From positions 1 through 64,000 of the forward strand of contig CAZERA010000001.1 in NCBI GenBank assembly GCA_964514565.1: a stretch of 64,000 nucleotides of DNA, written 5' to 3'. This stretch comes from an uncultured Candidatus Peribacteria bacterium. Its GTDB lineage: Bacteria; Patescibacteriota; Gracilibacteria; RBG-16-42-10. The position numbers are program-made. Every line of letters begins with the position of its first letter. The first letter of the stretch is position 1. This document shows, piece after piece, positions 39,001 to 42,000 of this stretch.

Positions 39001-42000
39001 CACTACTTTGATTAGTCAGAGCCACAGTAAATTGGTAATGCGTATCATGACCAAGTGAAAGCGACATCGCCGGCGTATCAAATCGATAAGCATATACTGG
39101 TGGTGTTGGTTCCACGACGATTGAAGTAGCCTCTTCCATTGCATAGGCAGGAGAAATACTTATACTCAGCATAGCTGACGAGAGGATCAAACCAGATAGC
39201 CTTTTCATAGAAATAGTTAGTTTTTGTTTTGATTGCTTTCATATAATTATGACATATTTAATATAAATGTCTATAGTCACATGCCAGAATTACCAGAAGT
39301 AGAAACCGTAGTTCAAACCCTACGAGACAAAATAACCCAACAAGAGATCACCAAAATAAAGTCATACAAACCAGAGACCGTTATTTTACTAGAGCCATTT
39401 CATCCATTCAAAGTGACCGAAATCGAGCGACGAGGAAAATATATTATTATTTGTGGCCAACATGATGAAAAAATCATCATTCATTTAAGAATGACAGGCC
39501 GATTAACTGAATCCCCCAGTCAAGAAAAATTTATTCGAGCAACAATCTACACTACTAAGCACGATCTTCACTTTGAAGACATGCGAAGATTTGGCCGAAT
39601 CACATTCACAATCAATAAGAAGATTGAAGACCTGCCCGGTATTAGTAAATTGGGACCTGAGCCCTGGGATACTAGCTTAGACACAAAGTTTTTTCCCGAA
39701 CTACAGAAAAGCACGCAAACTATAAAAAGCTTTCTGCTCGATCAAACTAAAATTGCTGGCATCGGCAATATCTATGCTGATGAATCATGTTTCCATGCCA
39801 GAATTTTACCGACTCAAAAAAGTAATTCGCTTACCAAAAAAGAAGCGAGCAGACTACTCTATGCTATTCGCTATATCCTCAAAAAAGCTATTCACCTACG
39901 AGGTACAAGCTTTGCTCACTTCATCGATGCCAACGGCAAAAAAGGCAACAACCTCGAATTCTTGGCTGTCTATGGACGGAAGAAATTAGCTTGTCTCAAA
40001 TGTAAAACGCCACTCACCCACCAGAAATTACAGGGTAGAACAACCATCTACTGTACTACCTGTCAGAAATAAAAACTGGCCCAAAATAAAAGAAGTTTGT
40101 ATAGCCGCTAATTCCTTATATATTCTACACCTACATACTTTTCTAAAAAGATGTAGGAAAATTTTGCGTAGAATTTTCGGAGATCATCCGCCATAACAAA
40201 ACTCCACGTGGATTCTATTACAACATCGCCAAAATGTCAATGCATAAAGGACGACTCACCTTTCTATTTCATCTCAAAAGAGCATAGTTAGCAGTTTATT
40301 CATTTTCTCAACCGCTCCACCATACTAGGCAACACTTCCAATACATAATCAATATCAGCCGTTTTTGTACCTCTACCCAAACTAAAACGCAAGCTACTCT
40401 TAGCCTCCAATTCAGTTCGCCCCAAGGCTAAAAGCACATGACTAGGCGAAACATCAGTAGCCTTACACGCAGATCCGGCTGAAGCCATGATTCCAGCCTC
40501 GTCTAGAAACAACAGTAAAGCATCTCCCTCCACACCAGAAAACACAACATTGACGTTATTTGCTAGTCGCAGAGTGGCATGGCCATTAAGCTGAGTACCC
40601 GGCATCAACAGGAGGCCACTGATAAGTTTATCTCTCAAAAAAGCTAGACGAGCTGACTCTTCTTTTTGAAACTCCAGAACCAACTCACAAGCTTTAGCAA
40701 AACCAATAATAGCCGCTACATTTTCTGTGCCTGGTCGCAAACCTTTTTCTTGTGAACCTCCATGTTCTAAACCATTAATTGCAGTGCCTCTACGAACAAA
40801 TAAAGCCCCAGCACCTTTGGGCCCATAGACCTTGCCACTATTGATAGTGAGCAAATCGACATGTAGATCATTCACATCGATAGGCAATAAACCAAGTGCT
40901 TGTGACGCATCGGTATGAAGCAAAACATTATGACGTCGAGCTAATTTAGCAATTTCTTTGATTGGCTGCACCACCCCAATTTCGTTGTTGGCTAACATCA
41001 CTGAAATTAAAATGGTGTCAGCAGTAATGAGTGAGTCTAATGCTTTGAGATCAACTAAGCCCTGCTCATTTACTGGAGCATAACTCACCTTCACACCTTT
41101 CTTTTCCATAGCACTAGCAGTATTCAGAATCGCTTGGTGCTCAATCTTACTAACAATAATATGCATGGATGATTTCGTACTAGCAGCTACTACTCCCAGC
41201 AAAGCTAAATTATCGGCTTCAGTCCCTCCACTTGTGAAGATAATCTCATCTGCATGAGCACCAATACTAGTAGCAATAGTTGTTCTAGCCGCATCAATAG
41301 CTTGGCGTACCGCTCTAGCACCAGCATAAAGACTAGAGGGATTATAAAAACAATCAGACAAATATGGTGCCATTGTAGCCACAACAATTGGATCTACAGG
41401 CGTAGCGCTAGCGTAGTCAAGAAAAATACGAGACTTTGACATATACTTATATCGCAATCAAAGCATTGATTTGAGGCACTTTCTCTTTCAAAGTCTTTTC
41501 TACACCAGCATAGAGAGTTACTTGTGCACTACTACAACTAGCACAAGCACCTACCAGATGAACTGTAACAATCCCGTTGGTCTCATCAACACCAAGCAGC
41601 TCAATATTGCCACCATCTGAAATGAGATAAGGACGAAGAGTGTCTAGCACCTTCTCAACCTGTTCAGTAATAGTCAGCCGACTCTTTCCTTTCTTTACCT
41701 TTTTCTTTGATTTCTTTGCAATAGTTTTTTTTACTTTCTTGGGCTCCTTTTTTTCTACCTTTTTTGTAGCTGTCTTTTTAGCAGCAACACTCTTAGATCT
41801 TTGGGGAACCGATTTGCTTGATTTAGCAGGCAGCTTCTTTTTTATAGCCATAATCCAATTTTACTAGCCCAATAATAAAGCTTTCCAGTCATTTTGCCTA
41901 ACGTTTTTTGAGCAATACTAATAACTGATTGAGTTTGTGTTCTACTTTTGCGACATGGGCTATTCGACTAGCATCAAATTCTTGCAGTAGTTTTTTTACT

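What a model noticed while it worked through the whole genome (the two positions that open the first line are those of the whole stretch)
40088..40246. Ultra-conserved small-ORF locus whose ribosome-binding site is complementary to the large bcp-queG RNA
The 227-bp spacer between the convergent genes fpg (g00039) and iscS (g00040) is not empty. On the minus strand it has a promoter whose hexamers are kept while its spacer varies (TTGACA-17 nt-TAGAAT here, TATAGT in other genera; -35 at C1:40240-40235), then GGAG, 7 nt and an ATG (C1:40194) opening a small ORF (MADDLRKFYAKFSYIFLEKYVGVEYIRN*, 28 codons here, 37-89 in relatives, first 35 codons conserved). The 119 nt C1:40088-40206 are 92-97% identical in the other genera of the family (84% in one), far better kept than the large RNA or typical protein genes, with changes not confined to third codon positions. 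The stretch UGGAGUUUUGUUAUGG (Shine-Dalgarno to start codon +2) is the exact compleme [...]
Evidence so far: BLASTN of all 574 spacers against G001: this spacer 90% over 226 nt. search_genomes: 7 of 7 same-family genomes match (97,95,97,92,84% over about q16-134 in G004,G006,G003,G005,G007; 90% in G001,G002), 0 of 13 others. Alignment A9: columns 17-135 nearly invariant, flanks unalignable except TGTCAA (= -35) and the -10. Exact 14-mer CATAACAAAACTCC occurs twice in this genome (C1:40192-40205 plus strand; large RNA, minus strand) and twice in G001 at the orthologous places; expected by chance about 0.008 per genome (own arithmetic). Per-genome check: promoter, GGAG-N7-ATG and ORF in 8 of 8; longest exact complement of the start region in the cognate large RNA 16,16,16,15,16,15,16,19 nt. 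In the RN [...]
(Added by a program. Inside this text positions count along the whole contig: contig position 1 is position 1 of the stretch shown here. "Call 12" and the like, gene names such as g00115 and contig names such as C1 are that model's own, and its searches are not shown. The text may have been shortened before it was handed on; [...] marks where a part breaks off. The agent that wrote the report below was given it as the finding of a first reader that could run no searches.)

Follow-up and report, generated by a model that had tools for sequence, protein, structure and literature searches.

The report
Rod-shaped small RNA, not an ORF
The spacer between fpg and iscS most likely holds a gene for an extremely conserved, hairpin-shaped small RNA (not a small protein) whose first 16 bases can pair with an exposed loop of a second, much larger non-coding RNA of the same uncultured bacteria.

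Summary
A 119-nt block (window 40206-40088, minus strand) behind a near-consensus promoter is present in 8 of 8 genomes of one family of Peribacteria-like CPR bacteria. It is 92-97% identical between genera, where tmRNA is 67-68% and fpg 55-72% (aa). Its first 15-19 nt are the exact complement of a motif that otherwise occurs exactly only in the family's ~680-800-nt bcp-queG RNA. That RNA carries 1-3 copies, predicted to lie mostly unpaired in hairpin loops.

The small-ORF reading is not supported. Variable columns fall 5:5:6 over codon positions, and 10 of 16 change the residue. The stop position drifts (28-89 codons) with unrelated tails. No protein relatives exist beyond the locus itself.

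The changes instead preserve one rod-like hairpin of 42 pairs (99.4% of cells paired; 40-55% when the partners are slid). G-U pairs fix the strand as minus.

Best reading: a new structured small RNA that opens its terminal helix and docks by its 5' end on the large RNA, acting as partner or being sponged. No transcript data were obtained. It is not SRP, 6S or 5S RNA.

The parts
40235..40240 (-). -35 hexamer TTGACA of the small-RNA promoter
   Evidence: Scan hit, 11 of 12 matches; invariant in 8 of 8 genomes while the spacer varies.
40212..40217 (-). -10 hexamer TAGAAT (TATAGT in G001, G002, G003)
   Evidence: Six bases (seven in genus g3) separate it from GGAG, so canonical spacing puts the start at or one base before the first G of GGAG. 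This is an inference; there are no 5'-end data.
40088..40206 (-). 119-nt ultra-conserved block, the predicted small RNA: one rod-like hairpin of 42 base pairs
   Evidence: Present in 8 of 8 family genomes. Model R1 scores 137-145 bits in those 8 and gives no strong hit in 143 other class genomes. RNAalifold and pair counts. Sense MFE -31 to -35 against antisense -15 to -21 kcal/mol.
40191..40206 (-). 5'-terminal 16 nt UGGAGUUUUGUUAUGG: complement of the loop motif of the large RNA; also the look-alike of a ribosome-binding site plus start codon
   Evidence: Exact complement of 15-19 nt in 8 of 8 cognate large RNAs. Bare duplex -23.2 kcal/mol. Opening its own helix costs 13-15 kcal/mol.
40179..40205 (-). 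5' strand of the terminal helix (alignment A3 columns 2-28)
   Evidence: 22 pairs with columns 92-115, 99.4% of cells paired; pair 22/97 shows G-C, G-U, U-A and U-G.
40092..40115 (-). 3' strand of the terminal helix (columns 92-115). It holds the column (40110) that reads as TAG in this genome.
   Evidence: Column 97 is C, U, A or G in different genomes and always pairs with column 22.
40158..40166 (-). 9-nt one-sided bulge CAAAAUUUU (columns 41-49)
   Evidence: Unpaired in the consensus structure; one variable column (46).
40130..40157 (-). Apical hairpin (columns 50-77), loop UAG / CAG
   Evidence: 12 pairs, 99% of cells paired. Pairs 54/73, 55/72 and 56/71 vary with pairing kept in all but one cell.
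40080..40091 (-). U-rich tail UUUUAUUUUGGG after the rod; conservation ends here, so this is the likely 3' end
   Evidence: Alignment. The terminator scan does not call it, so the 3' end is inferred only.
40108..40194 (-). 28-codon ORF (MADDLRKFYAKFSYIFLEKYVGVEYIRN*), judged not to be the functional product
39278..40072 (+). fpg (convergent downstream neighbour)
   Evidence: Pfam Fapy_DNA_glyco and H2TH. It is the neighbour in 6 of 7 relatives, at 55-72% aa identity.
40300..41457 (-). class-V aminotransferase (IscS/NifS-like), upstream on the same strand
   Evidence: Pfam Aminotran_5, 1.3e-74.

Best explanation
The locus is a gene for a structured non-coding RNA of about 115-120 nt, transcribed from the minus strand by a near-consensus sigma-70-type promoter. 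The transcript probably begins at or one base before GGAG. It folds into a single rod-like hairpin in which the 5' and 3' ends pair. Its first 15-19 nt are also the perfect complement of a motif (CCAUAACAAAACUCC) that the family's ~680-800-nt structured RNA, between bcp and queG, displays in one to three largely unpaired hairpin loops. The proposed mechanism is that the small RNA opens its weak, A/U-rich terminal helix and docks by its 5' end on the large RNA. This either makes the small RNA a trans-acting subunit or regulator of the large RNA, or makes the large RNA a sponge that holds it. RNase III, which the genome encodes, could then cut the duplex. Shown here: conservation, structure-preserving substitutions, strand, the specificity and conservation of the complementarity, and the predicted accessibility and energetics. 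Inferred: transcription, the two ends, pairing in the cell, and its consequence. The ORF is a by-product of a sequence that looks like a translation start.
For: The gene is present in 8 of 8 family genomes, with the promoter hexamers kept and the spacer and flanks free. The block is 92-97% identical between genera, against tmRNA at 67-68% and fpg at 64-72% nt and 55-72% aa. So synonymous-type sites are frozen too, and the constraint acts on the nucleotides. The consensus fold has 42 pairs with 99.4% of 336 cells paired, against 40-55% when partners are slid by 1-3 columns. Of 17 cells that depart from the commonest pair, 15 keep a standard pair (13 by a change on one side, 2 by changes on both) and 2 do not. 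38 G-U cells would be A-C on the other strand. The reverse strand scores 19 bits against 143 bits, and the sense fold is 12-18 kcal/mol better than the antisense fold. The 15-mer is exact only in the two RNA genes in each of 8 genomes, and the other near-matches are at the level of the reversed control. Only small-RNA nt 1-16/19 have a conserved complement in the large RNA. Shuffled large RNAs give 0.47 Watson-Crick runs of 9 or more. The stems around the motif differ between genera (CUCGGCAA/UUGCCGAG, CUCGGCAC/GUGCCGAG, CCCUUAAGUAAA/UUUACUUAGGG, GAGGG.../...CCCUC) while the motif is fixed. The mean unpaired probability of the 12 motif copies is 0.67-1.0, against 0.42-0.44 for all windows. The duplex is worth -23.2 kcal/mol and opening costs 13-15 kcal/mol. 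The dimer beats the monomers by 1.7-13.7 kcal/mol for 9 of 10 copies folded and by 0 for one. The two RNAs co-occur: R1 and R2 each give strong hits in the same 8 of 151 class genomes. The large RNA is itself a real structured RNA: 71 pairs in its 3' domain, 18 with compensatory change, plus a promoter and a terminator.
Against: There is no transcript evidence at all. Both pairing partners are invariant, so there is no intermolecular covariation. The 5' pairing segment is buried in the RNA's own terminal helix, which is unusual for a seed. The pairing explains the conservation of only 16-19 of 119 nt, so the near-invariance of the rest needs another, unknown partner. No canonical terminator is called after the rod. 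The 5' end is a textbook translation start: the same 20-mer sits at real gene starts in unrelated bacteria. That is not predicted by this reading. There are only 9 distinct sequences, from 3 genera that are kin.
Confidence: 0.6

Rival explanations
1. One reading: a small protein gene (28-89 codons), alone or as a dual-function RNA, whose Shine-Dalgarno sequence and start codon are occluded by the large RNA.
For: GGAG-7 nt-ATG is invariant in 8 of 8 genomes and is a genuinely good initiation region. The same 20-mer starts ACP-, EF-Ts- and LeuA-like ORFs in unrelated phyla. The frame is open for at least 28 codons in 8 of 8. The complement covers exactly the SD-to-start stretch.
Against: Variable columns fall 5:5:6 over codon positions, and 10 of 16 change the residue, including D>Y, L>S, Y>C and Q>stop/K/E. 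The stop position is not kept and the tails are unrelated. Two other frames of the block are open for at least 31 codons, in 8 and in 7 of 8 genomes. Only 6 protein clusters match, all at 84-94% identity and from this locus; there are none further away. In 7 of 8 genomes the ORF runs past the U-rich end of the conserved block. The predicted start leaves no leader before GGAG. The SD and AUG are paired in the rod as well as in the duplex.
Confidence: 0.12
2. A structured RNA whose main job does not involve the large RNA: a protein-, RNA-polymerase- or ribosome-binding housekeeping RNA, 6S- or Y-RNA-like in logic. The large-RNA motif would then be only a secondary titration site, or would not be used in the cell.
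For: Conservation of all 119 nt is far beyond what a 16-nt pairing needs, and exceeds that of tmRNA. The promoter is near-consensus. The shape is a rod with paired ends. The large RNA seems to have distant relatives in a second family where no small RNA is found.
Against: No Rfam family matches. The rod lacks the two-sided central bubble of 6S RNA. The perfect 15-19-nt complement is kept in 8 of 8 genomes and multiplied to three copies in one genus, which is hard to see as incidental.
Confidence: 0.2
3. No RNA gene at all: a conserved DNA element such as a protein-binding or recombination site.
For: No expression data exist.
Against: The substitutions are of the G-U-tolerant kind that makes sense only for one RNA strand. 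A conserved promoter sits at the exact edge of the conserved block. The complement lies in another RNA gene. There is no match in phages or plasmids.
Confidence: 0.03

Closest known systems
Trans-acting base-pairing sRNAs with an RNA sponge or decoy partner (examples recalled, not from a call: GcvB-SroC, ChiX-chbBC spacer, RoxS-RosA)
   Same: A short RNA with its own promoter. The pairing segment sits at the very 5' end. There is a 15-19-nt conserved complement in another non-coding RNA, which carries 1-3 sites.
   Different: No Hfq in the genome. The pairing segment is locked in the RNA's own terminal helix. The partner is a ~700-nt ornate structured RNA rather than a short or mRNA-derived sponge. 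The whole small RNA, not only the seed, is nearly invariant. No mRNA target is evident.
Dual-function sRNAs and small-ORF mRNAs (examples recalled: SgrS/SgrT, RNAIII/hld, SR1/SR1P)
   Same: A structured RNA containing an SD, an AUG and a short open frame.
   Different: No sign of selection on the peptide; the stop codon is not conserved.
4.5S SRP RNA (RF00169) and 6S RNA (RF00013)
   Same: Rod-like hairpin with paired 5' and 3' ends, about 115 nt like 4.5S RNA, strong promoter, high conservation.
   Different: No model match. The apex is a UAG loop rather than a GNRA tetraloop with the SRP loops (motif recalled). There is no two-sided central bubble. The lineage has no Ffh: the M domain is found in 0 of 81 class genomes searched.
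Large ornate bacterial ncRNAs (OLE, GOLLD, ROOL), as a comparison for the partner RNA
   Same: A ~700-nt intergenic RNA with promoter, terminator and many covarying helices.
   Different: No Rfam match at E up to 1. None of those classes is known to me to have a dedicated small-RNA partner (recalled).

Membership tests
Protein-coding small ORF | Ribosome-binding site and start codon at proper spacing | tested here: met
   GGAG-7 nt-ATG is invariant in 8 of 8 genomes.
Protein-coding small ORF | Substitutions concentrated at synonymous / third positions | tested here: not met
   Variable columns fall 5:5:6 at codon positions 1:2:3; 10 of 16 change the residue.
Protein-coding small ORF | Conserved length and stop; conserved C-terminus | tested here: not met
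   Lengths are 28, 50, 50, 39, 89, 41, 60 and 37 codons and the tails are unrelated.
Protein-coding small ORF | Protein relatives beyond nucleotide-level conservation | tested here: not met
   6 clusters, all at 84-94% identity and of the same locus, in 5.8 billion sequences; only proteins of 27-88 aa were searched.
Structured non-coding RNA gene | Consensus secondary structure kept by the observed substitutions | tested here: met
   42 pairs with 99.4% of cells paired, against 40-55% when slid. 15 of 17 departing cells keep a pair. Only 1 pair has changes on both sides, so covariation proper is thin.
Structured non-coding RNA gene | Own promoter and defined ends matching the conserved block | tested here: inconclusive
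   The promoter is met. The 5' edge of conservation coincides with the predicted start. No canonical terminator is called. No transcript ends are available.
Base-pairing sRNA with RNA partner | Conserved, specific complementarity to the partner | tested here: met
   15-19 nt in 8 of 8 genomes; exact 15-mer nowhere else.
Base-pairing sRNA with RNA partner | Accessible pairing sites | tested here: inconclusive
   The target motif is accessible, with unpaired probability 0.67-1.0. The small RNA's own segment is paired and opening costs 13-15 kcal/mol, outweighed on paper by the -23.2 kcal/mol duplex.
Base-pairing sRNA with RNA partner | Compensatory change between the two RNAs, or physical interaction | not testable with these tools
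   Both segments are invariant in all known copies.
SRP RNA (RF00169 / RF01854) | Match to the covariance model | tested here: not met
   No match in G000. 0 of 9 genomes of the order over the cut-off. Nothing in the region at E up to 10.
SRP RNA (RF00169 / RF01854) | Ffh partner protein present | tested here: not met
   SRP_SPB is found in 0 of 81 class genomes searched. SRP54 domain: 0 of 9 over the cut-off in the order. In print for many CPR (PMC8080830, one passage read).
6S RNA (RF00013) | Model match; about 150-200 nt with a two-sided central bubble | tested here: not met
   No match. The RNA is 119 nt and its largest interruption is a one-sided 9-nt bulge.
5S rRNA (RF00001) | Model match | tested here: not met
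   5S rRNA is found elsewhere, at C3:489-605; none in this region.
Type I toxin-antitoxin | Small hydrophobic membrane peptide whose translation an RNA blocks | tested here: not met
   The peptide is charged and aromatic, with no hydrophobic span (read), and shows no protein-level constraint.

The most novel reading that the evidence does not exclude
The small RNA and the ~700-nt RNA form an obligate two-RNA particle specific to this CPR family. The rod RNA switches between a closed form and an open form docked on one to three loops of the large RNA. The docking segment is a perfect mimic of a translation-initiation region (SD, 7-nt spacer, AUG), and the large RNA carries the matching 'anti-initiation-region'. 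The pair may therefore act on the ribosome or on translation initiation at large, for example by trapping or releasing 30S subunits. That would also explain conservation above that of tmRNA over the whole 119 nt.
Probability: 0.15. Interest if true: 0.85.

Novelty: new variant of a known kind. Interest (0 to 1): 0.6.

Why it matters
Almost nothing is known about regulatory or structural RNAs in CPR/Patescibacteria. Full-text searches for Peribacteria, Peregrinibacteria, Gracilibacteria or 'Candidate Phyla Radiation' combined with noncoding RNA, small RNA or 6S RNA gave no relevant paper. Here a 1.1-Mb genome keeps two dedicated non-coding RNA genes with a built-in, testable interaction. One is conserved more strictly than tmRNA; the other is a large ornate RNA. 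If the pairing is real, it is a clean natural example of a small RNA dedicated to a large structured RNA in bacteria that lack Hfq. It would also give a handle on the function of a new large RNA class. The result also warns against annotating this locus as a small protein, as gene callers have done.

Tried and rejected

Expression: one search for sequencing runs and one laying of 4 runs (2 RNA, 1 guessed RNA, 1 unknown). Eight contig pieces landed on fpg or iscS and none covered 40100-40584. All runs were contigs, so nothing can be said either way about transcription.

Rfam: nothing credible for the small locus at E up to 10 or for the large RNA at E up to 1.

More diversity: a 20-mer scan of genome contigs and metagenome contigs gave 18 loci. 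Nine are true copies by model R1, and only one of these is a new sequence, equal to the consensus. The other nine are chance hits at gene starts or inside obg.

Weak R1 hit in G124 (24.9 bits, E 0.0016 per genome among 151 genomes; AT-rich hairpin, 1 of 10 genomes of its family): treated as chance.

A partner small RNA for the candidate large-RNA relatives in family f24: R1 finds none in G042 or G053. A BLAST of the G042 RNA against both genomes gave only low-complexity short matches.

A second complementarity between the small RNA's 3' arm and a loop (UUGUAUA[GC]) of the large RNA: 9 nt in G003, 7 nt by eye in three others, absent in the other genera. Treated as chance.

Whole-length duplexfold of the two RNAs gave meaningless long interior-loop solutions and was replaced by local cofolds.

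Phage or plasmid origin: no match.

Hfq: none found.

The first protein query (39 aa) was below the tool's minimum. The 50-aa ORF of G004 was used instead.
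Full report
WHAT IS THERE

The window is the first 64 kb of contig C1 of a 1.12-Mb, 41% G+C genome in 7 contigs. 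Titles of public contigs that carry the same element name Candidatus Peribacteria, Gracilibacteria and Abawacabacteria MAGs, so this is a CPR/Patescibacteria lineage. The 227-bp spacer lies between fpg (Pfam Fapy_DNA_glyco and H2TH) on the plus strand and a class-V aminotransferase (IscS/NifS-like) on the minus strand.

On the minus strand the spacer reads as follows. TTGACA lies at 40240-40235. After 17 nt comes TAGAAT at 40217-40212. After 6 more nt comes GGAG at 40205-40202. After 7 more nt comes ATG at 40194-40192. This is the only promoter-like site the scan reports in 39800-40500, with 11 of 12 matches.

CONSERVATION

BLAST finds the spacer in 8 of 8 genomes of the family, which has 3 genera, and not in the single genome of the sister family. 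Outside the own genus only the central block aligns. The trimmed 119-column alignment has 97% mean column identity and 103 invariant columns. Upstream, only the two promoter hexamers are kept.

For scale, the tmRNA of the same window is 81-82% identical within the genus and 67-68% between genera. It was found in 6 of 8 genomes. The neighbouring fpg is 55-72% identical in protein and 64-72% in DNA, and is the neighbour in 6 of 7 relatives. The block therefore evolves far more slowly than a housekeeping RNA and than synonymous sites, so the constraint is on the nucleotide sequence itself.

A covariance model of the block (R1) scores 137-145 bits in the 8 family genomes. Among 143 other genomes sampled from the class it gives one weak hit (24.9 bits), which I treat as chance. 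Scans of two public contig collections with the invariant 20-mer added only one new sequence, identical to the consensus. There is no match in phage or plasmid collections.

PROTEIN OR RNA

The ORF is open for 28 codons here and for 37-89 codons in relatives, with unrelated tails. Two other frames of the same 119 nt are also open for at least 31 codons, one in 8 of 8 genomes and one in 7 of 8.

The 16 variable columns from the ATG onward fall 5:5:6 on codon positions 1:2:3, and 10 of them change the residue. The changes include D>Y, R>Q, Y>C, L>S and Q>stop/K/E.

A search of 5.8 billion protein clusters with the 50-aa version (lengths 27-88 aa only) returns 6 clusters. All are 84-94% identical over the shared part and plainly come from the same locus. 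There is thus no sign of selection on a peptide.

The same substitutions fit one RNA fold. RNAalifold gives a single rod of 42 pairs, in which the 5' GGAGUUUUGUUAUGG arm pairs with the 3' CUAUACAAACUUC arm. The rod is interrupted by a 4/6-nt internal loop and a one-sided 9-nt bulge, and is capped by a 12-bp apical hairpin.

Of 336 pair cells, 99.4% form a standard pair, against 40-55% when the 3' partners are slid by 1-3 columns. Eight of the 42 pairs vary. Of the 17 cells that depart from the commonest pair, 13 keep pairing through a change on one side, 2 through changes on both sides, and 2 are broken. The most variable column, read as TAG here and as CAG, AAG or GAG elsewhere, always matches its partner: G-C, G-U, U-A, U-G.

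With only 8 related sequences and one pair with double changes, this is good consistency rather than strong covariation. The shuffle control is reached by 7 of 500 shuffles.

The strand is settled. 38 cells are G-U, which would be A-C on the other strand. The reverse strand scores 19 bits against 143 bits. The sense fold is -31 to -35 kcal/mol and the antisense fold -15 to -21 kcal/mol in all 8.

With canonical spacing the transcript starts at, or one base before, the first G of GGAG. This is exactly where conservation begins. Conservation stops in a U-rich run after the rod. Both ends are inferences.

THE PARTNER

The 14-mer has one other copy in the genome, at C1:334085-334098 on the minus strand. 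It sits inside a ~1-kb gene-free gap between a Bcp-like peroxiredoxin gene and queG. That gap holds a minus-strand promoter (TTGACG-17-TATATT) and a strong intrinsic terminator about 685 nt downstream.

The RNA is found in 8 of 8 family genomes and is 673-807 nt long. Its 3' domain folds into 71 consensus pairs, of which 18 show compensatory changes. So it is a genuine large structured RNA, with no Rfam match at E up to 1.

In every genome it contains the motif. Genera g1 and g2 have one copy each and genus g3 has three. Allowing up to 2 mismatches, other genomic hits are no more frequent than for the reversed control pattern.

The exact complement to the small RNA is 16, 16, 16, 15, 16, 15, 16 and 19 nt. 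It always involves small-RNA nt 1-16/19 and no other part. Shuffled large RNAs give on average 0.47 Watson-Crick runs of 9 nt or more.

The stems that flank the motif differ between genera while the motif does not. In full-length partition-function folds the 12 copies have mean unpaired probability 0.67-1.0, against 0.42-0.44 for all 13-nt windows.

The bare 16-bp duplex is worth -23.2 kcal/mol, and opening the small RNA's terminal helix costs 13-15 kcal/mol. Cofolds of the small RNA with 100-nt target segments are better than the monomers by 1.7-13.7 kcal/mol for 9 of 10 copies and equal for one. Pairing is therefore plausible on paper, but it needs strand exchange.

WHAT IT IS NOT

- No Rfam family matches the region at E up to 10.
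- It is not SRP RNA. Neither SRP RNA model matches in this genome, and 0 of 9 genomes of the order match the small SRP model over the cut-off.
- The SRP proteins are missing too. The Ffh M domain is found in 0 of 81 class genomes searched and the SRP54 GTPase domain over cut-off in 0 of 9 of the order. One passage of PMC8080830 states that SRP subunits are absent in many CPR bacteria.
- It is not 6S RNA (no two-sided bubble).
- It is not 5S rRNA, which lies on C3.
- RNase P RNA and tmRNA are found elsewhere.
- The genome has no Hfq but does have RNase III.

MECHANISM AND ITS WEAK POINTS

My reading is that this is a new small structured RNA whose 5' end docks on exposed loops of the large RNA. 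One to three sites per large RNA fits a sponge or scaffold.

Model R2, built from a 130-nt subdomain of the large RNA, gives strong hits in the same 8 of 151 class genomes as R1. It also gives two weak full-length hits in another family. These lie in 0.9-1.2-kb gene-free gaps and share AACGGUCAGGGUAAGACCUAAAC. No small RNA is found there. This hints that the large RNA is older and the small RNA a family-specific addition.

Four things remain unexplained.
- Why all 119 nt are frozen, when pairing needs only 16-19.
- Why the pairing segment is hidden in the RNA's own helix.
- Why it is such a good imitation of a translation start. The same 20-mer begins ACP-, EF-Ts- and LeuA-like genes in unrelated bacteria.
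- What the consequence of pairing is.

A second partner, whether a protein or the ribosome, is likely. No transcript data could be obtained.

VERDICT

The ORF interpretation is not supported. The RNA-RNA complementarity is supported as a conserved and specific feature, but the interaction itself is untested. The RNA family is new: it is not in Rfam 15, and full-text searches found no relevant paper. The kind of system, a small RNA with an RNA partner, is known, with unusual traits.

Noticed in passing
Outside the window: G000 C1:333656-334341 (-), locus L002 1072-1757: The partner, a ~685-nt structured RNA between a Bcp-like gene and queG. It has its own promoter and terminator and is 673-807 nt long in 8 of 8 family genomes. 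18 of 71 pairs in its 3' domain show compensatory change. It has no Rfam match and is rich in A/C linkers such as AACAAAAACAAA.
   Followed up: partly
L098 1501-1638 (G042) and L099 1501-1618 (G053): Weak but full-length matches of the large-RNA subdomain model in a second family of the class. They lie inside 0.9-1.2-kb gene-free gaps with promoter- and terminator-like ends and share AACGGUCAGGGUAAGACCUAAAC. The large-RNA class may reach beyond this family.
   Followed up: partly
Whole genome and class: No SRP system. SRP RNA model: 0 of 9 genomes of the order over the cut-off. SRP54 GTPase domain: 0 of 9 over the cut-off. Ffh M domain: 0 of 81 class genomes searched. Absence of SRP subunits in many CPR bacteria is mentioned in PMC8080830 (one passage read).
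   Followed up: partly
window 2815-2878, 36452-36476, 54894-55018; reference copy C1:334493-334637: A ~145-nt palindromic repeat (arms like AGTAAGAAGTAAAAGATAAGAGGTAAGAAGT) with 39 further BLAST matches across contigs C1-C6 of this genome. No matches to it are listed in the relatives. It looks MITE- or REP-like.
   Followed up: no
window 18368-18783 (+) and 61034-61109 (-): tmRNA (tag AKDSLEAARNVEYTNAFAMAA) and tRNA-Val(GAC). The tmRNA is only 67-68% identical between genera of the family.
   Followed up: partly
L043, L044, L052, L054 (gene starts); L049, L050, L057, L058 (inside obg-like ORFs): The invariant 20-mer of the small RNA's 5' end recurs by chance in unrelated phyla as SD-spacer-ATG-GCG-GAT at real gene starts, or as ...FVMADIPG... 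inside Obg. So it is a typical translation-start sequence.
   Followed up: yes
contig C1 of G000: 210 N in C1; not located.
   Followed up: no
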